Below, piece after piece: positions 2,433 through 13,604 of a stretch of 64,000 nucleotides of DNA. The notes beneath the pieces are model-generated. The model saw only the letters and a program-made list of their open reading frames with translations, did no database searches and was not told the origin of the DNA. The position numbers were made by a program, and so were the translations under genes. The first letter of the stretch is position 1. Each line of letters opens with the position of its first letter. Source of the stretch: Escherichia coli (GTDB lineage: Bacteria; Pseudomonadota; Gammaproteobacteria; Enterobacterales; Enterobacteriaceae); NCBI RefSeq assembly GCF_041886205.1, contig NZ_CP169029.1; one strand, 5' to 3'.

Positions 2433-3559
<1,127 letters not shown>

Positions 3560-3653
3560 TTAATTCGTAAAACGTGCTACCGATCACATTAAGAATTCTC
3601 AGCATAGTTGAATTTTAGGGAAGTAACCTCGGGCGATCGCCCAGTTCAGCACA

Positions 3654-4562
3654 CTAATTCTGCTGTAAAAAGTGCAGAAACTGACTTAAAGCATAAGAAG
3701 GCGTTTCGTTATTGCGCCAGAACACACCGACGCTGCCTTTCTGTTCTATCTTTGGCAGGTTGAGGATCACCAGTTGTCCCTGGCTGGCATAACGTTGCGC
3801 CAGGCGTAATGACAAAATAGAGATCATATCGCTGCTTTGTAACAGGTTGGTACTGACGTTCATCGACGCCGACTCAATCGTGTTTTCTGGCAGCATCACG
3901 CCGTGGTCTACCAGCGCATTATCAATGCTGATGCGGATGGGGGTACCTGTCGGCCAGACTATCCACCGCCAGTTAGCAAGATCATTCCAGCTGAGGGTGG
4001 CGTATTTCGCCAGTGGATGCTCAGGACGGGCGACAAAACACACCGGCTCGGTGTAGAGCACGCGATAATTCAGCGGCAGCTGCAACGCGCGACCGCCAAT
4101 TCGCCCAACCACCACATCGACAGAACCTGCCAACAGATCTTGCAGCAATGGGGTCATCACCTTCTCTTCGATATTCAGGTGTAGAGTTGGCATCTCCTTG
4201 AGCAAATGCAAAATCGCCTGGGATACGCAGTCAGTGGCGACGGGAGAACAGCCAATTTTCAGACTGCCGACCAGACCACCTTGTTTAAAACGGGCCAGTT
4301 CATGTTGCGAGCGCTCCATGTCATTGATTAACCGTTGGGCATGTTGCAATAACAATTTGCCGCCTTCAGTAGGACGAAGTCCTTTGCTGTGCCGCTCAAA
4401 AAGTGTGAGTCCGATCTCATCTTCCAGATGTGACAACCATTTCGAAAGCGCGGGTTGGGTGATATTCATCATCCGTGCGACATGGGTCAGATTACCCTGT
4501 TCACCCAGCGCCACCAGCATTTGCAGGTGATGAAGCTTTAGTTTCTGCGCCCAGTTTGCCAT
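3654..4562 (-). CDS. LysR-family transcriptional regulator of the gentisate cluster (MhbR-like), 302 aa
   Basis: N-terminal HTH (LKLHHLQMLVALGEQGNLTHVARMMNITQPALSKWLSHLE) typical of LTTRs; divergent from catabolic operon. Confidence 0.85.
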   Translation of the reverse strand: MANWAQKLKLHHLQMLVALGEQGNLTHVARMMNITQPALSKWLSHLEDEIGLTLFERHSKGLRPTEGGKLLLQHAQRLINDMERSQHELARFKQGGLVGSLKIGCSPVATDCVSQAILHLLKEMPTLHLNIEEKVMTPLLQDLLAGSVDVVVGRIGGRALQLPLNYRVLYTEPVCFVARPEHPLAKYATLSWNDLANWRWIVWPTGTPIRISIDNALVDHGVMLPENTIESASMNVSTNLLQSSDMISILSLRLAQRYASQGQLVILNLPKIEQKGSVGVFWRNNETPSYALSQFLHFLQQN

Positions 4563-4567
4563 TTGCC

Positions 4568-4583
4568 ATAACCTTCAGGTTAT
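4568..4583. promoter_or_regulatory. perfect 16-bp palindrome ATAACCTTCAGGTTAT, candidate LTTR operator in divergent promoter region
   Basis: Dyad-symmetric sequence read directly in the 126-bp regulator/transporter intergenic region; role inferred. Confidence 0.3.
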
Positions 4584-4688
4584 CTCTCTGCTCGAAATGC
4601 CATTGTACATTTCATCTCTTTAATCACAATATCGCAACATACACAAAACAAAAGAAACATCTACCTTACCTGCACTGAGGCATTTACT

Positions 4689-6047
4689 ATGACTCAACGA
4701 CGTGATCTACAAGCACTGATCGATGCCGCTCCGGTCGGCAAGATGCAGTGGCGCGTTATCATCTGCTGTTTTCTGGTGGTAATGCTCGATGGTTTTGACA
4801 CCGCGGCTATCGGCTTTATCGCCCCTGATATTCGCACTCACTGGCAACTCACCGCAGGCGATCTCGCCCCGCTTTTTGGCGCGGGTCTGCTGGGGTTAAC
4901 CGCAGGCGCACTGCTTTGTGGCCCGTTGTCCGATCGCTTTGGTCGCAAACGGGTGATTGAGCTGTGTGTCTTTTTGTTTGGCGCGTTAAGCCTTGCCTCG
5001 GCTTTCTCACCGGATCTGCAAACGCTGGTATTCCTGCGTTTCCTAACCGGCCTTGGGCTGGGTGGCGCGATGCCAAACACCATCACCATAACCTCGGAAT
5101 ATCTGCCTGCCCGCCGCCGCGGCGCGCTGGTGACGCTGATGTTTTGCGGCTTTACGCTGGGTTCGGCGTTTGGCGGGATTGTTAGCGCGCAGCTGGTGCC
5201 GGTGATTGGCTGGCACGGCATTCTGGTGTTGGGGGGCGTGTTACCGCTGATGCTGTTTGTCGCACTGCTGGTAGTTCTGCCGGAATCGCCACGCTGGCAG
5301 GTGCGCCGCCAGCTACCGCAGGCGGTGATTGCGAAAACCGTCAGCGCCATCACCCGCGAGCGTTATGTCGATACCCACTTTTATCTCATTGAATCAGCCT
5401 CCGTTACAAAAGGCAGCATTCGTCAACTGTTTATGGGACGTCAGTTACCCATCACGTTGATGCTGTGGGTAGTGTTCTTTATGAGCCTGCTGATTATTTA
5501 CCTGCTCTCAAGCTGGATGCCGACGCTACTGAACCATCGCGGCATCGACCTGCAACACGCGTCCTGGGTCACCGCCGCGTTCCAGATTGGTGGTACGTTA
5601 GGCGCGCTGGCGCTGGGTGTGCTGATGGATAAGTTCAATCCTTTCCGCGTACTGGCACTGAGCTATGCCATAGGCGCTGTATGCATCGTGATGATTGGCT
5701 TAAGCCAGGACGGATTATGGCTGATGGCGCTGGCGATTTTCGGCACCGGCATTGGTATTAGCGGATCGCAGGTGGGGCTGAATGCGCTGACCGCCACACT
5801 TTATCCAACACAAAGTCGCGCCACGGGCGTGAGTTGGTCAAACGCCGTGGGTCGCTGCGGTGCGATTGTTGGCTCGCTTTCTGGCGGCGTGATGATGGCG
5901 ATGAATTTCTCTTTCGACACCCTGTTTTTCATTATCGCTGTGCCCGCGGCGATCAGTGCGGTGATGTTAGCCTTGCTGATTACCGTGGTTCGCCAGTCGA
6001 CCTCTGTCCCTGACTCACTGCCTCGCGCAGGCGTTGTGAACGAATAA
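4689..6047 (+). CDS. MFS aromatic-acid:H+ symporter (3-hydroxybenzoate/gentisate transporter, MhbT-like), 452 aa
   Basis: 452-aa 12-TM ORF with MFS signature [11 protein letters not shown]; first gene of catabolic operon. Confidence 0.85.
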
Positions 6048-6058
6048 GGAGCATCCTA

Positions 6059-7087
6059 ATGACTGATAACAATCAAAATAGCCGCGAACAATTTTATCAG
6101 CACATTTCCGGGCAAAACCTGACCCCGCTGTGGGAGTCACTACACCATCTGGTGCCGAAAACGCCCAACGCTAACTGTGTGCCAGCGTACTGGAATTATC
6201 AGGAGATCCGCCCGCTGCTGCTGGAGAGCGGCAGCCTGATTGGCGCGAAAGAGGCGGTGCGCCGCGTGCTGGTGCTGGAAAACCCGGCGCTGCGCGGGCA
6301 GTCTTCCATCACCGCGACTTTATATGCCGGTTTGCAACTGATCATGCCGGGCGAAGTGGCACCGAGTCATCGCCATAACCAGTCGGCGCTGCGTTTTATT
6401 GTTGAAGGCAAAGGGGCATTTACCGCCGTTGACGGCGAACGCACGCCAATGAATGAGGGCGATTTTATCCTCACTCCGCAGTGGCGCTGGCACGATCACG
6501 GTAACCCTGGCGACGAACCAGTTATCTGGCTCGATGGGCTGGATCTGCCATTAGTGAATACTCTGGGCTGCGGTTTTGCCGAAGATTACCCGGAAGAGCA
6601 ACAACCGGTAACGCGTAAAGAGGGCGATTATCTGCCGCGTTACGCTGCCAATATGTTGCCGCTGCGCCATCAGACCGGGAACTCCTCACCCATCTTTAAC
6701 TACCGTTATGACCGCAGCCGCGAAGTGCTGCACGATTTAACCCGCCTGGGCGATGCCGATGAGTGGGATGGCTACAAAATGCGCTACGTCAACCCGGTCA
6801 CCGGTGGCTATCCGATGCCGTCGATGGGCGCTTTCCTGCAACTGCTGCCGAAAGGGTTCGCCTCCCGCGTGGCGCGTACCACTGACAGCACCATCTATCA
6901 CGTGGTGGAAGGCGGCGGGCAGGTCACCATCGGCAATGAAACCTTCAGCTTTAGTGCAAAAGATATCTTCGTGGTGCCGACCTGGCACGGCGTGTCGTTC
7001 CAGACCACGCAAGATACCGTGTTATTCAGTTTTTCGGACAGACCGGTACAAGAAGCCCTGGGACTGTTCCGCGAAGCGCGTTATTAA
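6059..7087 (+). CDS. gentisate 1,2-dioxygenase (bicupin), 342 aa
   Basis: 342-aa ORF with cupin His motif ([16 protein letters not shown] ... WRWHDHGN); size typical of gentisate dioxygenases. Confidence 0.85.
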
Positions 7088-7102
7088 TTTGGGAGAGAAA
7101 AA

Positions 7103-7804
7103 ATGACTCAATACGTATTCGAACCACAAGCGCCCGTTACCGTACCGGTTGTTGGCAGTGATGAACAATTCCCCGTGCGCCGCGTGTACTGCGTCGGACG
7201 TAACTATGCCGCCCACGCCCGCGAAATGGGCTTTGATCCGGATCGTGAACCGCCATTCTTCTTCTGCAAACCGGCGGATGCCGTTGTTCCGGTTGCCGCT
7301 GGCGAAACGCTGGCGCTGCCGTATCCGGCGCAGACCGATAACTACCATTACGAAATTGAACTGGTGGTGGCGATTGGTAAAAAGGGCAGTGATATCCCGC
7401 TGGAAAACGCCCATGAATATGTCTGGGGTTATGCCACGGGTCTTGATATGACTCGTCGTGACCGTCAAATGGAAATGCGCCAGATGGGCCGCCCGTGGGA
7501 AATCGGCAAAGCGTTTGATCTCTCGGCCCCCATCGCGCCGCTGCACAAAGCCAGCGAAACCGGCGGTATTGATAACGCGCCAATCTGGTTACAGGTTAAC
7601 GGCGAAGATCATCAGCGCAGCGATATTCGCCATCTCATCTGGTCAGTGAATGAAACCATCAGCTACCTGTCCGGCTTTTTTGAACTGCAACCGGGCGATC
7701 TGATCTTCACCGGTACGCCGGAAGGGGTTGGCCCGGTAGTGAAAGGTGATGTGATCACGGGCAACGTCGAGGGCTTAACGCCTATCGCGGTGAAAATTGT
7801 CTGA
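7103..7804 (+). CDS. fumarylpyruvate hydrolase (FAH family), 233 aa
   Basis: 233-aa FAH-fold ORF directly downstream of the dioxygenase. Confidence 0.8.
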
Positions 7805-7809
7805 GGTGC

Positions 7810-8457
7810 ATGATGAAGCTGTACAGTTTTTTTAATAGTTCAGCATCGTACCGGGTACGCATTGCGCTGGCGCTGAAAGGCATTGATTACCATACCGAAG
7901 GGGTGAATATCCGCATTGGTCAGCAAAATGAACTGGCCTACCGGCGGATGAATCCGGTCGGGCTGGTGCCGACGCTGCTGACTGACGAGGGCGAATCACT
8001 TGGACAATCGCTGGCGATTATTGACTGGCTGGATCGTCACTACCCCCAAGTTCCGCTGATGCCGCAGGAAGAGCCGGCCCGCAACAAGGTGCTGGAAATT
8101 GTCTATGCCATCGCCTGTGATATTCATCCACTGAATAACCTGCGCGTGCTGCGCTACCTGACCGAAGAGCTGAACGTCAGTGAAGAAGATAAAAAACGCT
8201 GGTATGCGCACTGGATCCAGCAAGGGTTAAGCGCGGTGGAACAGCTGTTGCGCCAGAGCCAGTCGGGGCAATTTTGCGTGGGCGAGACGCCGACGCTGGC
8301 AGATTGCTGCCTTGTCCCGCAGTGGGCGAACGCGCTACGCATGAACTGCGATCTGAGTGGGTATCCGCGCTGCAAAGCGGTGTACGACGCCTGCACGCAG
8401 CTGCCAGCGTTCATTGCCGCAGCGCCAGAAAATCAACAAGATAAAATTTCAGCCTGA
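7810..8457 (+). CDS. maleylpyruvate isomerase (GST zeta-like), 215 aa
   Basis: GST N-terminal thioredoxin-like fold (MKLYSFFNSSASYRVRIALALKGIDY); operon context. Confidence 0.8.
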   Translation: MMKLYSFFNSSASYRVRIALALKGIDYHTEGVNIRIGQQNELAYRRMNPVGLVPTLLTDEGESLGQSLAIIDWLDRHYPQVPLMPQEEPARNKVLEIVYAIACDIHPLNNLRVLRYLTEELNVSEEDKKRWYAHWIQQGLSAVEQLLRQSQSGQFCVGETPTLADCCLVPQWANALRMNCDLSGYPRCKAVYDACTQLPAFIAAAPENQQDKISA

Positions 8458-8468
8458 CCAGGAGAACC

Positions 8469-9665
8469 ATGATGACTAAAGTGACACGCGCAGTAATTGT
8501 GGGAGGCGGGATCGGCGGTGCGGCAACTGCGCTGTCACTGGCCCGCCAGGGGATCAAAGTGGTGCTGCTGGAAAAGGCGCATGAGATTGGTGAGATTGGC
8601 GCGGGCATCCAGTTGGGGCCAAATGCGTTTTCGGCGTTGGATAGCCTCGGCGTCGGCGAAATCGCCCGCCAGCGCGCGGTATTCACCGATCACATCACCA
8701 TGATGGATGCGGTAAACGCCGAAGAAGTGGTGCGCATTGAAACCGGTCAGGCCTTTCGCGACCATTTCGGCGGCCCTTACGCGGTGATCCACCGGGTTGA
8801 TATTCACGCCTCGGTGTGGGAAGCGGTACTGACGCATCCGGACGTGGAATATCACACCTCCACCAACGTCGTGGATATTCGTGAGACGGAAGACGATGTC
8901 ACCGTGTTTGACGATCGCGGCAATAGCTGGAGCGGCGATATTCTGATTGGCTGTGATGGCGTGAAGTCAGTGGTGCGCCAGAGCTTATTAGGCGATGCGC
9001 CGCGCGTCACCGGACATGTGGTCTACCGCGCAGTTATCGATTGTGCGGATATGCCGGAAGATTTGCGCATTAACGCACCAGTACTGTGGGCGGGGCCGCA
9101 CTGTCACCTGGTGCATTACCCTTTGCGCGGCGGCAAGCAGTATAACCTGGTGGTGACATTCCACAGCCGCCAGCAGGAAGAGTGGGGCGTGAAGGATGGC
9201 AGTAAAGAGGAAGTGCTCTCTTACTTTGAAGGGATTCACCCCCGTCCTCGCCAGATGCTGGATAAACCGACCTCCTGGCGACGCTGGTCAACCGCCGACC
9301 GTGAACCGGTAGCGAAGTGGGGAACGAAGCGCATTACGCTGGTTGGCGATGCGGCCCATCCGGTGGCGCAGTATATGGCGCAGGGTGCCTGTATGGCGTT
9401 GGAAGACGCGGTAACGCTCGGCAAGGCGCTGGCGCAGTGTGAGGGGGATGCGGCGCAAGCCTTTGCACTGTATGAGTCGGTACGTATTCCGCGCACCGCG
9501 CGCATCGTCTGGTCGACCCGTGAAATGGGGCGGGTTTATCACGCCGCAGGAGTAGAGCGCCAGGTACGAAACCTGCTGTGGAAAGGTAAATCGCAGGCAG
9601 AGTTTTACCGCGGCATGGAGTGGCTGTACGGCTGGAAAGAAGATAACTGTCTGCAACCACGCTGA
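8469..9665 (+). CDS. 3-hydroxybenzoate 6-hydroxylase (FAD-dependent monooxygenase), 398 aa
   Basis: Rossmann GxGxxG ([20 protein letters not shown]) near N-terminus; salicylate-hydroxylase-like length; last gene of cluster. Confidence 0.8.
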
Positions 9666-9685
9666 GTACTTTAATCCGCTGACCG

Positions 9686-10715: not shown

Positions 10716-10976
10716 TCAATAGGCCGCACGGTTGTTTGGTGGCGTCAAAATTGCCGAGGCGTTCCCTGAAGGCCGGGGCAGCCCACATGGATGTGGGCTG
10801 AGGGCGCGTTTTACAGGGATGTTACCTCGCGCCCGACCCGGTAGCCGTAAGGGATAAGCCGAGGGCACCGCGCAGCGGCGATTTTGTTCGCCAGAGCCCG
10901 GGGGTGCAGGGGGCGGCGGCGATTGGCCGCCCCCTGCGCGCTCCTTGCGCCAGTGATTATATGAAGCAATGCACAT
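10716..10976. repeat. GC-rich intergenic repetitive element with two perfect palindromes
   Basis: cagcccacat/atgtgggctg (10779-10800) and cagggggcggc/gccgccccctg (10907-10936) read directly; not canonical REP. Confidence 0.4.
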
Positions 10977-11045
10977 GACAGGAGCGCAACAGGATGAGAG
11001 ACTGAAATATTCTCGTTATTTTCGGACCTGATGACATTAATTAAT

Positions 11046-11129
11046 TTTAAAATATCATCTTAAATACGCCAGTCACCACCAGTAGCCCAATCAGGAAAAT
11101 AATCAATACAGCCCAGAGTATAATTTTCA
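11046..11129 (-). CDS. yohP: small membrane protein YohP, 27 aa
   Basis: Reverse-strand ORF MKIILWAVLIIFLIGLLVVTGVFKMIF, below track size cut-off; matches remembered YohP. Confidence 0.7.
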
Positions 11130-11353
11130 TTGGCGTTCCTTTATTTGTGAGTGCTGAATAAGTATAGGAAAAAACGAAGCCCTTTGCCGTTATCCATAAA
11201 CGATTAAGATAAATCGGAAGATATCATTCACTTAGTGTATATTTTTCTGGATATGTCGTTTTATTGCTACTGATGTATTGCCACGCGAAACTAAAAAATA
11301 TATCGCAACACACGGTAATCTCCGCGCACCTTTTCTTACCTGATTATTCCCCC

Positions 11354-12790
11354 ATGAATCGTGATTCCTTTTATCCCGCCATCGCCTGTTTTCCGCTGTT
11401 ACTGATGCTGGCCGGGTGTGCGCCTATGCATGAAACCCGCCAGGCGTTAAGCCAGCAAACGCCCGCTGCACAAGTTGACACCGCATTACCCACGGCGCTG
11501 AAAAATGGTTGGCCAGACAGCCAATGGTGGCTGGAGTATCACGATAATCAGCTCACTTCATTAATTAACAATGCACTACAGAACGCACCGGATATGCAGG
11601 TGGCTGAACAGCGCATTCAGCTAGCTGAAGCCCAGGCGAAGGCAGTTGCCACTCAGGATGGTCCGCAGATCGACTTTTCGGCGGATATGGAGCGGCAAAA
11701 AATGTCGGCAGAAGGCTTAATGGGGCCGTTTGCTCTGAACGATCCGGCCGCAGGTACGACCGGCCCGTGGTACACCAACGGTACTTTTGGCTTAACGGCG
11801 GGCTGGCATCTCGATATCTGGGGAAAGAATCGGGCGGAGGTTACTGCCCGCCTGGGTACGGTTAAAGCACGGGCGGCGGAACGCGAGCAAACCCGCCAAT
11901 TGCTGGCTGGCAGCGTAGCCCGCCTGTACTGGGAGTGGCAAACCCAGGCGGCGTTAAACACGGTCTTGCAGCAAATAGAAAAAGAGCAGAACACCATTAT
12001 CGCGACCGATCGCCAGCTATATCAGAACGGGATTACTTCTTCAGTTGAAGGTGTGGAAACCGATATTAATGCCAGCAAAACCCGGCAGCAGCTCAACGAT
12101 GTCGCGGGGAAAATGAAAATTATTGAGGCACGGTTAAGCGCACTTACAAATCACCAGACAAAGTCATTGAAGCTTAAACCGGTCGCGTTGCCGAAAGTGG
12201 CAAGCCAGCTTCCTGATGAACTGGGGTACTCCTTACTGGCCCGGCGGGCAGATTTGCAGGCGGCGCACTGGTACGTTGAGTCATCGCTAAGCACCATTGA
12301 TGCGGCAAAAGCGGCATTTTATCCTGACATCAACCTGATGGCCTTCCTGCAACAGGATGCGTTGCACTTAAGCGATCTGTTCCGTCATTCCGCGCAGCAA
12401 ATGGGCGTTACGGCAGGCCTGACGCTACCCATTTTCGATAGTGGTCGTCTTAACGCCAATCTCGATATCGCAAAAGCCGAAAGCAACTTGTCTATCGCCA
12501 GCTACAACAAAGCGGTGGTTGAAGCGGTGAATGACGTGGCGCGGGCAGCCAGTCAGGTTCAGACACTTGCGGAGAAAAACCAGCATCAGGCGCAAATTGA
12601 GCGCGATGCCTTGCGTGTGGTAGGTCTTGCGCAGGCGCGCTTTAACGCGGGCATCATTGCTGGTTCCCGCGTCAGCGAAGCCAGAATCCCCGCGCTGCGT
12701 GAGCGGGCCAATGGCCTGTTATTGCAAGGGCAGTGGCTGGATGCCTCCATTCAACTCACTGGTGTGTTGGGCGGGGGTTACAAACGCTGA
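11354..12790 (+). CDS. mdtQ: outer-membrane efflux lipoprotein MdtQ (TolC/OprM family), apparently intact, 478 aa
   Basis: Track ORF 11264..12790 trimmed to MNRDSFYPAIACFPLLLMLAGCA lipobox start; continuous reading frame. Confidence 0.8.
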   Translation: MNRDSFYPAIACFPLLLMLAGCAPMHETRQALSQQTPAAQVDTALPTALKNGWPDSQWWLEYHDNQLTSLINNALQNAPDMQVAEQRIQLAEAQAKAVATQDGPQIDFSADMERQKMSAEGLMGPFALNDPAAGTTGPWYTNGTFGLTAGWHLDIWGKNRAEVTARLGTVKARAAEREQTRQLLAGSVARLYWEWQTQAALNTVLQQIEKEQNTIIATDRQLYQNGITSSVEGVETDINASKTRQQLNDVAGKMKIIEARLSALTNHQTKSLKLKPVALPKVASQLPDELGYSLLARRADLQAAHWYVESSLSTIDAAKAAFYPDINLMAFLQQDALHLSDLFRHSAQQMGVTAGLTLPIFDSGRLNANLDIAKAESNLSIASYNKAVVEAVNDVARAASQVQTLAEKNQHQAQIERDALRVVGLAQARFNAGIIAGSRVSEARIPALRERANGLLLQGQWLDASIQLTGVLGGGYKR

Positions 12791-12842
12791 TGATATGCGC
12801 CTTCTATACTTAACGTTTATTCAGCGTTAAGTGGAGAACTCG

Positions 12843-13604
12843 ATGGCACAGGTTGCGATTATTACCGCCTCCGATTCGGGGATCGGCAAAGAGTGCGCGT
12901 TATTACTGGCGCAGCAGGGGTTTGATATTGGTATTACCTGGCACTCAGATGAAGAAGGGGCAAAAGATACCGCGCGTGAGGTAGTTAGCCACGGCGTACG
13001 TGCGGAGATCGTGCAGCTGGATCTCGGCAATCTACCAGAAGGGGCACTGGCGCTGGAGAAACTCATTCAACGGCTGGGGCGCATTGATGTGCTGGTGAAT
13101 AATGCGGGTGCAATGACCAAAGCGCCGTTTCTTGATATGGCTTTTGATGAGTGGCGCAAGATTTTTACCGTTGATGTCGATGGTGCATTCTTATGCTCGC
13201 AAATTGCGGCTCGTCAGATGGTGAAACAAGGGCAGGGCGGTCGCATCATCAACATTACGTCGGTACATGAACATACGCCGCTGCCGGATGCCAGCGCCTA
13301 CACAGCCGCTAAACATGCGCTCGGTGGGTTAACCAAAGCGATGGCGCTGGAGCTGGTCAGGCATAAGATTTTGGTGAACGCAGTCGCGCCTGGGGCGATC
13401 GCCACGCCAATGAATGGCATGGATGACAGCGACGTGAAGCCCGACGCGGAGCCTTCGATTCCCTTGCGGCGTTTTGGCGCAACGCATGAGATTGCCAGCC
13501 TGGTGGTGTGGCTTTGTTCGGAGGGCGCAAATTACACCACCGGGCAGTCGTTGATAGTGGATGGCGGCTTTATGTTGGCGAATCCACAGTTCAACCCAGA
13601 ATAG
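12843..13604 (+). CDS. yohF: short-chain dehydrogenase/reductase YohF, 253 aa
   Basis: SDR cofactor motif TASDSGIG and catalytic YTAAK; start set at MAQVAIITAS. Confidence 0.88.
   Translation: MAQVAIITASDSGIGKECALLLAQQGFDIGITWHSDEEGAKDTAREVVSHGVRAEIVQLDLGNLPEGALALEKLIQRLGRIDVLVNNAGAMTKAPFLDMAFDEWRKIFTVDVDGAFLCSQIAARQMVKQGQGGRIINITSVHEHTPLPDASAYTAAKHALGGLTKAMALELVRHKILVNAVAPGAIATPMNGMDDSDVKPDAEPSIPLRRFGATHEIASLVVWLCSEGANYTTGQSLIVDGGFMLANPQFNPE

What the first reader, a model, noticed from the sequence alone, without database searches (positions are those of the whole stretch)
11354..12790. mdtQ appears intact here
The reading frame from the lipoprotein signal peptide (MNRDSFYPAIACFPLLLMLAGCA) to the stop is uninterrupted and encodes a 478-aa TolC/OprM-family outer-membrane factor. 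My recollection is that the K-12 reference carries mdtQ as a disrupted pseudogene, so this strain may keep a functional efflux channel.
Basis: partly seen in the sequence, partly recalled or inferred. Interest (0 to 1): 0.3.

Follow-up and report, generated by a model that had tools for sequence, protein, structure and literature searches.

The report
Intact mdtQ outer-membrane channel gene
This E. coli strain carries the normal, uninterrupted version of mdtQ, a TolC-like outer-membrane channel gene; the lab strain K-12 is the odd one out with a one-base deletion, and this is already known, so the finding is correct but ordinary.

Summary
Window 11354-12790 (+) is an uninterrupted 478-codon ORF. 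It matches the NCBIfam MdtQ equivalog end to end (1023 bits, cutoff 650). It has a lipoprotein signal peptide (lipobox L19-A20-G21-C22), two OEP repeats and a predicted fold that matches only outer-membrane-factor channels, best VceC.

K-12 MG1655 (b2139) and W3110 annotate mdtQ as a frameshifted pseudogene. The only lesion is loss of one A from the A5 run at window 11501-11505, giving a stop at codon 70.

The intact state is the rule. The A5 probe matches exactly in 4585 of 5407 complete E. coli genomes that hold the locus. The K-12 A4 probe matches in 355; the 60 listed are lab K-12 derivatives or strains of uninformative name with K-12-sized genomes. Across nine alleles dN/dS is about 0.03-0.12. 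Full-length orthologues sit at the same position in Salmonella and Citrobacter.

No pump genes are adjacent. The nearest non-orthologous relatives lie in MFS- or FUSC/PET-type tripartite operons, so MdtQ probably serves such a pump encoded elsewhere. That is inference; function was not tested.

A 2025 review already notes that mdtQ is core-conserved despite its pseudogene annotation. Verdict: already known, low interest.

The parts
11354..12790 (+). mdtQ (formerly yohG) coding sequence, 478 aa plus TGA; intact outer-membrane factor lipoprotein of the NodT subfamily
   Evidence: ORF. NCBIfam NF008524 MdtQ equivalog 1023.5 bits against a cutoff of 650, aligned 1-478/478; TIGR01845 NodT 270 bits against 210. 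Pfam OEP, 2 stretches. Annotated mdtQ in 5400+ genomes.
11354..11416 (+). Lipoprotein signal peptide (residues 1-21); the lipobox L19-A20-G21-C22 is encoded at 11408-11419, with the lipidated Cys22 codon at 11417-11419 and Ala at +2
   Evidence: Read directly from the sequence. C22 is invariant in a 60-sequence alignment of homologues down to 26% identity. LAGC or MAGC is conserved in E. albertii, Salmonella and Citrobacter.
11501..11505 (+). A5 homopolymer (codons K50-N51, CTG AAA AAT). K-12 has A4 here, and this is the sole disabling lesion of the K-12 pseudogene
   Evidence: Global alignment with NC_000913.3 b2139. The A5 probe is exact in 4585 genomes and the A4 probe in 355.
11558..12151 (+). 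First OEP repeat (residues 69-266): helices H79-102, H158-224 and H230-265 and beta-strands E105-116 and E139-153 of the model
   Evidence: Pfam PF02321 best stretch 69-266; AlphaFold2 secondary structure.
12227..12766 (+). Second OEP repeat (about residues 292-471): beta-strands E325-336 and E348-357 and long helices H363-431 and H437-471
   Evidence: Pfam reports 2 stretches. Boundaries are taken from the AlphaFold2 model. The fold matches VceC, OprJ, CusC and OprN over about 430-460 columns.
11272..11342 (+). Conserved upstream blocks (11272-11298 GATGTATTGCCACGCGWAACTAAAAAA; 11315-11342 GTAATCTCYGCRCAYCTTTTYTTAYC.G) in the yohP-mdtQ divergent intergenic region. Probably a promoter/operator or 5' leader; function unknown. 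No Shine-Dalgarno precedes the ATG
   Evidence: Alignment of E. coli, Salmonella and Citrobacter. No marbox, no stable RNA fold (z = 0.46) and no Rfam family.
12843..13604 (+). yohF (SDR oxidoreductase), 52 nt downstream on the same strand; possibly co-transcribed with mdtQ
   Evidence: Annotation transferred from wlxctx60 and K-12. No terminator-like hairpin in 12791-12842. An SDR gene also follows the Salmonella orthologue and a 59%-identity orthologue but not the Citrobacter one.
11047..11130 (-). yohP (27-aa small membrane protein), the divergent upstream neighbour
   Evidence: Annotation in wlxctx60, K-12 and other genomes; Pfam YohP in Salmonella.

Best explanation
Window 11354-12790 is the ordinary, intact allele of mdtQ (yohG), one of the four TolC-superfamily outer-membrane factors of E. 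coli. The inferred pathway is as follows. The 478-aa precursor is exported. It is lipidated on Cys22 and cleaved by signal peptidase II. Because residue +2 is Ala, the Lol system sends it to the outer membrane. There it should trimerise into a 12-stranded beta-barrel with a long periplasmic alpha-helical tunnel. That tunnel would serve as the exit duct for an inner-membrane transporter plus periplasmic adaptor encoded elsewhere in the genome. The partner is most likely of the MFS (EmrAB/VceAB-like) or FUSC/PET (AaeAB/MdtNO-like) type rather than RND. K-12 is a natural null mutant because one A was lost from the A5 run at codons 50-51. What is shown here: ORF integrity, family membership, fold, the exact K-12 lesion, the population frequency of each allele, purifying selection, synteny and orphan status. 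What is inferred: expression, lipidation and sorting, trimerisation, channel activity, partner type and substrates.
For: The ORF is intact and begins with a lipobox signal peptide. It matches the MdtQ equivalog full length at 1023.5 bits against a cutoff of 650, and passes the NodT subfamily cutoff. Pfam finds two OEP repeats. The AF2 model (pLDDT 84.7, pTM 0.80) has 4 beta-strands and long helical hairpins. Every significant PDB fold match (44 at E <= 0.001) is an OMF channel, with VceC 1yc9 on top (TM 0.86 normalised to the target) and then OprJ, TOprJ1, CusC, SilC and OprN. VceC is also the best sequence match (E = 4e-39, against about 1e-22 for OprM and CusC).

K-12 differs by a 1-nt deletion plus only 7 substitutions and is annotated as pseudogene/frameshifted. 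The A5 allele is exact in 4585 of 5407 genomes and the A4 allele in 355; the 60 listed are lab K-12 derivatives or strains of uninformative name with K-12-sized genomes. All seven phylogenetically spread alleles are intact 1437-nt CDSs. dN/dS is 0.03-0.12 for all but one of the 36 allele pairs (0.20 for the closest pair), and 64 of 84 variable sites are at third codon positions.

Orthologues of 478-479 aa at 81% identity sit in the same dusC-(yohP)-mdtQ-(yohF)-yohD-yohC-pbpG-dld context in Salmonella and Citrobacter, with no pump genes nearby. The nearest non-orthologous relatives (37-42% identity) sit in YtcA-MFP-FUSC-OMF, FUSC-OMF, MFS-OMF-MFP(EmrA-like) and MFS-OMF-HlyD operons. The literature says mdtQ is core-genome conserved despite its pseudogene annotation and that its function is not elucidated (PMC11762307).
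Against: There is no expression or activity evidence for this allele. No Shine-Dalgarno precedes the ATG in any of the three genera, and only a weak, distant sigma-70-like match was found, so expression may be low or conditional. No cognate adaptor or pump is adjacent, so the partner assignment rests on only four informative neighbourhoods of distant relatives. Sporadic natural lesions show the gene is dispensable in some niches: in-frame deletions of 24, 31, 43 and 58 aa, other frameshifts, an IS5-associated deletion, and truncations in S. Typhi and Paratyphi A.
Confidence: 0.82

Rival explanations
1. The ORF is intact but the gene is effectively silent or cryptic: an orphan channel without a working promoter, ribosome-binding site or partner. 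On this view intactness here has no phenotypic consequence and the K-12 frameshift is simply the first visible step of neutral decay.
For: There is no Shine-Dalgarno sequence and no convincing promoter. The gene is an orphan. Independent lesions recur in E. coli isolates and in Salmonella Typhi and Paratyphi A. The review states that the function is not elucidated and the promoter is unconfirmed.
Against: dN/dS is 0.03-0.12 over dS up to 0.12 within E. coli. Length is preserved and identity is 81% in Salmonella and Citrobacter. The upstream non-coding block is itself conserved across genera. The 61-nt A5 probe is exact in about 85% of genomes, and all 7 sampled diverse alleles are intact. Neutral decay would not preserve a 1.4-kb frame across genera.
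Confidence: 0.13
2. The difference from K-12 is a homopolymer sequencing or assembly error in this window or in the K-12 reference, not a real biological difference.
For: The lesion is a 1-nt length change in a homopolymer (A5 versus A4), which is the classic error type for some sequencing platforms.
Against: A4 is reproduced exactly in 355 independent complete assemblies, including the MG1655 and W3110 references. A5 is reproduced in 4585. A run of five bases is short for systematic homopolymer error.
Confidence: 0.01
3. MdtQ is a functional channel, but not for drugs. It would be the exit duct for endogenous or dietary aromatic carboxylic acids, working with the AaeAB-type PET-family 'relief valve', and would be linked functionally to the neighbouring 3-hydroxybenzoate/gentisate catabolic cluster.
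For: Two of the four informative relatives are fused into FUSC/PET operons with AaeA-like adaptors. E. coli's paralogue MdtP is reported in an operon with the adaptor MdtN and the pump MdtO. The ancestral arrangement in Salmonella, Citrobacter and this strain places the gentisate cluster about 1.7 kb upstream.
Against: dusC and yohP separate the cluster from mdtQ. About 89% of E. coli genomes lack the cluster but keep mdtQ. The other two informative relatives are in MFS-type operons. There is no experimental link.
Confidence: 0.12

Closest known systems
MdtQ (YohG) of E. coli non-K-12 strains, e.g. O157:H7 UniProt Q8X659 / RefSeq WP_001078131.1; NCBIfam NF008524
   Same: It is the same gene. 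The position (dusC-yohP-mdtQ-yohF), the length (478 aa) and the lipobox are the same. Nucleotide identity over window 11200-12900 to other E. coli strains is 97-100%. The protein here is WP_001078134.1.
   Different: Nothing of substance. There are 3-7 amino-acid substitutions relative to other phylogroups.
K-12 mdtQ pseudogene (b2139; historically split as yohG/yohH)
   Same: Same locus. Excluding the indel, the 1437-nt gene differs at only 7 positions: 5 synonymous and 2 non-synonymous (H267N, V471A).
   Different: K-12 lacks one A of the A5 run at window 11501-11505. Its reading frame ends at codon 70, after the signal peptide and 48 mature residues, so no channel can be made.
VceC of Vibrio cholerae (PDB 1YC9), the outer-membrane factor of the MFS-type VceAB pump
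   Same: It is the best solved relative by sequence (E = 4e-39) and by fold (TM 0.86 normalised to the target, 25% identity). It has the same protomer architecture.
   Different: Identity is only about 25%. By my own knowledge, VceC is encoded next to its pump genes, whereas mdtQ is an orphan.
MdtP (YjcP) of the E. coli mdtNOP operon (NCBIfam NF007390)
   Same: It is the closest E. coli paralogue, scoring 354 bits on the MdtP model. It is also a NodT-type lipoprotein OMF.
   Different: The score is below the MdtP cutoff of 597, so this protein is not MdtP. mdtP is reported to be co-operonic with an adaptor (MdtN) and a pump (MdtO), while mdtQ stands alone.
TolC (PDB 1EK9; TIGR01844)
   Same: Same superfamily and overall fold (Foldseek E about 1e-13 to 1e-15). 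Both are encoded away from their pump genes.
   Different: Identity is about 13%. The score is 54.7 bits against a TIGR01844 cutoff of 225. TolC is not lipidated, whereas MdtQ has a lipobox.

Membership tests
MdtQ equivalog (NCBIfam NF008524) | Full-length HMM score above the curated cutoff (650 bits) | tested here: met
   1023.5 bits, aligned 1-478 of 478
MdtQ equivalog (NCBIfam NF008524) | Orthologous chromosomal position (dusC-yohP-mdtQ-yohF-yohD-yohC-pbpG-dld) | tested here: met
   Same gene order as K-12, wlxctx60 and Salmonella, and as Citrobacter except that yohP and yohF are missing there
Outer-membrane factor family (Pfam PF02321 OEP; TC 1.B.17), NodT lipoprotein subfamily (TIGR01845) | Two tandem OEP repeats | tested here: met
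   PF02321, E = 1.5e-30, 2 stretches
Outer-membrane factor family (Pfam PF02321 OEP; TC 1.B.17), NodT lipoprotein subfamily (TIGR01845) | NodT subfamily HMM score above cutoff (210 bits) | tested here: met
   270 bits
Outer-membrane factor family (Pfam PF02321 OEP; TC 1.B.17), NodT lipoprotein subfamily (TIGR01845) | N-terminal lipoprotein signal peptide with a lipobox Cys | tested here: met
   L19-A20-G21-C22 read from the sequence. C22 is invariant in 60 homologues. Actual lipidation was not tested.
Outer-membrane factor family (Pfam PF02321 OEP; TC 1.B.17), NodT lipoprotein subfamily (TIGR01845) | Protomer fold: 4 beta-strands plus long antiparallel alpha-helical hairpins | tested here: met
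   The AF2 model has E105-116, E139-153, E325-336 and E348-357 plus helices of 36-69 residues. All 44 significant PDB matches (E <= 0.001) are OMF channels.
Outer-membrane factor family (Pfam PF02321 OEP; TC 1.B.17), NodT lipoprotein subfamily (TIGR01845) | Homotrimer forming a 12-stranded barrel and periplasmic tunnel; conducts substrates when docked to an adaptor and pump | not testable with these tools
   Only a monomer was modelled. There are no biochemical data.
Outer-membrane factor family (Pfam PF02321 OEP; TC 1.B.17), NodT lipoprotein subfamily (TIGR01845) | Adjacent cognate adaptor and pump genes (typical of NodT-type OMFs, but not defining) | tested here: not met
   No MFP or pump genes are annotated anywhere in window 1-32000, or within 6 kb in Salmonella and Citrobacter. 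Relatives at 37-42% identity do have them.
TolC subfamily (TIGR01844) | HMM score above cutoff (225 bits) | tested here: not met
   54.7 bits. Same superfamily, but not a TolC orthologue.
MdtP family (NF007390) | HMM score above cutoff (597 bits) | tested here: not met
   354.4 bits. A paralogue, not MdtP.

The most novel reading that the evidence does not exclude
All K-12 strains are natural mdtQ nulls, so decades of K-12 efflux genetics could not have seen MdtQ's contribution. In wild E. coli, MdtQ may be the dedicated or alternative exit duct for an adaptor-dependent non-RND exporter that has no outer-membrane gene of its own, of the AaeAB/PET or EmrAB-like MFS type. The puromycin, acriflavine and tetraphenylarsonium phenotype that gave the gene its 'Mdt' name was, as I recall, obtained by deleting yohG in W3110. 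W3110 is itself frameshifted. If my recollection is right, that phenotype cannot reflect loss of the channel and may instead be a polar effect on yohF.
Probability: 0.2. Interest if true: 0.4.

Novelty: already known. Interest (0 to 1): 0.08.

Why it matters
It matters little as a discovery. The intact allele is the species norm. The K-12 pseudogene status is in the reference annotation, and the conservation of mdtQ despite that annotation has been published. It is useful as a reminder in three ways. K-12 is a natural null for one of E. coli's four TolC-family channels. Functional claims for MdtQ drawn from K-12 backgrounds need re-examination. And any real test of MdtQ function must use an A5 strain like this one, or a repaired K-12.

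Tried and rejected
1. The longer TTG-initiated ORF from 11264 (508 aa) was rejected as the real start. The equivalog HMM and the Salmonella and Citrobacter orthologues start at the ATG at 11354.

2. The homopolymer sequencing-error explanation was rejected. Both alleles are reproduced in hundreds to thousands of assemblies.

3. A MarA/SoxS/Rob marbox in the conserved upstream block: there is no match with up to 2 mismatches in 11131-11353, and the window-wide count equals chance (16 against 16.9 expected).

4. A structured 5' leader or known RNA family: the fold z-score is 0.46 and there is no Rfam hit in the mdtQ 5' region.

5. Promoter scan: only one sigma-70-like match, about 300 nt upstream and overlapping the yohP 3' end, and the number of matches is no higher than in shuffles. 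Not informative.

6. Sulavik et al. 2001, the source of the mdtQ phenotype, could not be read; it is not held. The strain background (W3110) is therefore from my memory only.

7. Programmed frameshifting to rescue the K-12 allele was considered. The site (G CTG AAA ATG) is not a classical X XXY YYZ slippery heptamer and A4 is too short for efficient transcriptional slippage. Rejected by reasoning, not tested.

8. Exact intact and pseudogene counts could not be obtained for all 5426 genomes, because the search output does not expose pseudogene flags. 467 genomes match neither 60/61-nt probe exactly and are unresolved.

Full report
**Observation.** Window 11354-12790 (+) is an uninterrupted ATG-to-TGA frame of 1437 nt, i.e. 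478 codons plus stop. An open frame of this length has a chance probability of about 1e-10. The ORF lister's longer TTG-initiated version (from 11264, 508 aa) is not the gene. The MdtQ equivalog model aligns residues 1-478 to profile positions 1-478, and the ATG with its MNR start is conserved in Salmonella and Citrobacter.

**Identity.**
- NCBIfam NF008524 (MdtQ, equivalog) scores 1023.5 bits against a cutoff of 650.
- The NodT lipoprotein subfamily model TIGR01845 scores 270 bits against 210.
- The paralogue model MdtP (354 against 597) and the TolC subfamily model (54.7 against 225) both fail their cutoffs.
- Pfam finds two OEP repeats.
- The N-terminus has a lipobox, L19-A20-G21-C22, with Ala at +2. 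Cys22 is one of only ten invariant columns in a 60-sequence alignment reaching down to 26% identity.
- An AlphaFold2 model built on that alignment (mean pLDDT 84.7, pTM 0.80) has four beta-strands and four very long helices per protomer.
- All 44 significant PDB fold matches (E <= 0.001) are outer-membrane-factor channels. VceC (1YC9) is first, followed by OprJ, TOprJ1, CusC, SilC, OprN, CmeC, OprM and MtrE. TolC scores markedly lower.
- VceC is also the best sequence match, at E = 4e-39 against about 1e-22 for OprM and CusC.

**Comparison with K-12.**
- NC_000913.3 annotates mdtQ (b2139) as a pseudogene of 1436 nt.
- PGAP flags it 'frameshifted' in another MG1655 assembly and in W3110.
- A global alignment shows one disabling difference: K-12 has A4 where this window has A5, at 11501-11505 (codons K50-N51; CTG AAA AAT becomes CTG AAA ATG). 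The K-12 frame then stops at codon 70.
- There are 7 further substitutions, 5 synonymous and 2 non-synonymous (H267N, V471A).
- An earlier notebook entry gave the run as 11497-11501. That was a miscount and is corrected here and in the notebook.
- The K-12 allele carries no second lesion, so the frameshift is evolutionarily recent.

**Which allele is unusual?**
- The locus is present in 5421 of 5426 complete E. coli genomes, and 5407 of them cover at least 80% of the 1701-nt query.
- A 61-nt probe spanning the A5 run matches exactly in 4585 genomes.
- The corresponding K-12 A4 probe matches exactly in 355. All 60 listed are lab K-12 derivatives (MG1655, W3110-type, DH5alpha, DH1, C600, J53, RR1, NCM3722 and laboratory-evolution lines) or strains of uninformative name with K-12-sized genomes.
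- The remaining 467 genomes carry some other difference within the probe and were not resolved.
- Seven alleles chosen across the identity range are all annotated as intact 1437-nt CDSs. They are O157:H7, O25:H4, O104:H4, UPEC132, LWY24, MLI108K3 and E300010.
- The intact state is therefore the species norm, and K-12 is the exception.

**Is the intact gene maintained by selection?**
- Across nine alleles, Nei-Gojobori dN/dS is 0.03-0.12 for all but one of the 36 pairs (0.20 for the closest pair), with dS up to 0.12. 64 of 84 variable sites fall at third codon positions.
- Full-length orthologues exist in E. albertii (94% identity) and in Salmonella and Citrobacter (81%).
- In Salmonella and Citrobacter they occupy the same position: gentisate cluster, dusC, (yohP), mdtQ, (yohF), yohD, yohC, pbpG, dld.
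- This is strong evidence for function.
- The gene is nonetheless dispensable in some lineages. One E. coli genome has lost yohP and mdtQ next to an IS5-like element. Protein databases hold E. coli variants with in-frame deletions of 24, 31, 43 and 58 aa and frameshifts at other positions. Independent truncations are reported in S. Typhi and Paratyphi A (PMC9241588).

**How it probably works.**
- No adaptor or pump gene is annotated anywhere in window 1-32000, or within 6 kb in Salmonella and Citrobacter. MdtQ is therefore an orphan channel, as TolC is.
- To infer the kind of partner, I examined the neighbourhoods of the nearest representatives outside the orthologue group.
- A 59%-identity orthologue is also an orphan and is followed by an SDR gene, as here.
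- The four informative relatives at 38-42% identity all sit in non-RND tripartite operons: YtcA, AaeA/EmrA-like MFP, FUSC, OMF; FUSC, OMF; MFS, OMF, EmrA-like MFP; and MFS, OMF, HlyD-type MFP.
- The best solved relative is VceC, which by my own knowledge is the duct of the MFS pump VceAB. Together these favour an MFS- or PET/FUSC-type partner encoded elsewhere. Candidates in E. coli, from general knowledge, are AaeAB, EmrAB, EmrKY and MdtNO. This step is inference from a small sample.
- Lipidation, Lol sorting and trimerisation follow from established knowledge of the family and were not tested.

**Regulation.**
- The 223-nt yohP-mdtQ divergent intergenic region contains two blocks that are invariant or nearly so across the three genera (11272-11298 and 11315-11342). 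They are better conserved than the signal-peptide codons.
- No Shine-Dalgarno sequence precedes the ATG in any genus.
- I found no marbox, no stable RNA structure (z = 0.46) and no Rfam family there. The promoter scan was uninformative.
- There is no terminator-like hairpin in the 52 nt between mdtQ and yohF, so the two may be co-transcribed.

**What is already known.**
- A 2025 review (PMC11762307) lists MdtQ (formerly YohG) as one of four E. coli outer-membrane factors and notes that it is encoded independently.
[quoted passage not shown] It uses the O157:H7 protein (Q8X659) for a structural superposition on TolC and says the function is not elucidated.
- Another paper notes that MdtQ carries N-terminal acylation, like MdtP and CusC.
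- The finding therefore adds nothing new.

**A loose end.**
[quoted passage not shown] 2001.
- I could not read that paper. My recollection is that the work was done in W3110.
- W3110 carries the same frameshift. If the recollection is right, the phenotype cannot be due to loss of a functional channel, and a polar effect on yohF is a plausible alternative. This is flagged, not established.

**Verdict.** Interest is low.

Noticed in passing
window 3596-9668: A 6.07-kb 3-hydroxybenzoate/gentisate catabolic cluster (LysR regulator, mhbT, gtdA, FAH-family hydrolase, maiA, 3-hydroxybenzoate 6-monooxygenase) lies between yohJ and dusC. K-12 lacks it at this site. It is present in only 611 of 5426 complete E. 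coli genomes (many O157:H7; 26 of the matching places are on plasmids), yet it is syntenic in Salmonella and Citrobacter. It therefore looks ancestral and widely lost in E. coli, and it is a rarer trait of this strain than the intact mdtQ.
   Followed up: partly
window 11272-11342: Two upstream blocks are invariant or nearly so across E. coli, Salmonella and Citrobacter (GATGTATTGCCACGCGWAACTAAAAAA and GTAATCTCYGCRCAYCTTTTYTTAYC.G), and the mdtQ ATG lacks any Shine-Dalgarno sequence. The blocks are not a marbox, not a stable RNA fold and not an Rfam family. They remain unexplained.
   Followed up: partly
L023 (W3110) 2658-4093; literature: W3110 carries the same mdtQ frameshift as MG1655. The drug-susceptibility phenotype that underlies the name MdtQ is cited to Sulavik 2001. 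As I recall, that study used W3110, but the paper is not held. If so, the phenotype came from deleting an already dead gene, and a polar effect on yohF (52 nt downstream, no terminator) is possible.
   Followed up: partly
L012 (CFSAN061769) 2953-3932: One E. coli genome, from raw-milk cheese, lacks yohP and mdtQ entirely. A frameshifted IS5-like ISKpn26 transposase gene sits in their place between dusC and yohF.
   Followed up: no
window 11846-11854 and 11918-11926: A 9-nt direct repeat, GCCCGCCTG, occurs twice, 72 nt apart, inside mdtQ. An E. coli MdtQ variant (P0004, 454 aa) lacks exactly the 24 residues between the two copies, consistent with slipped-strand deletion. Other isolates carry in-frame deletions of 31, 43 (seen on 43 contigs) and 58 aa.
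   Followed up: partly
window 10732-10883: There is a sub-threshold Rfam match to TwoAYGGAY RNA (30.9 bits against a gathering score of 43, E = 0.029) in the G+C-rich dusC-yohP intergenic region. There is also a weak AgvB-like match at 10964-11024 on the minus strand. Both are probably chance or repeat-element sequence.
   Followed up: no
L015 586-2265: A metagenomic MdtQ orthologue at 59% identity is also an orphan and is followed by an SDR (yohF-like) gene. The mdtQ-SDR pairing therefore extends beyond Escherichia and Salmonella, although Citrobacter lacks it.
   Followed up: partly
window 1-32000: The first half of the window is 99.991% identical (3 mismatches, no gaps) to E. coli strain wlxctx60 from Asian black bear faeces in Japan. 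The second half of the window was not examined.
   Followed up: partly
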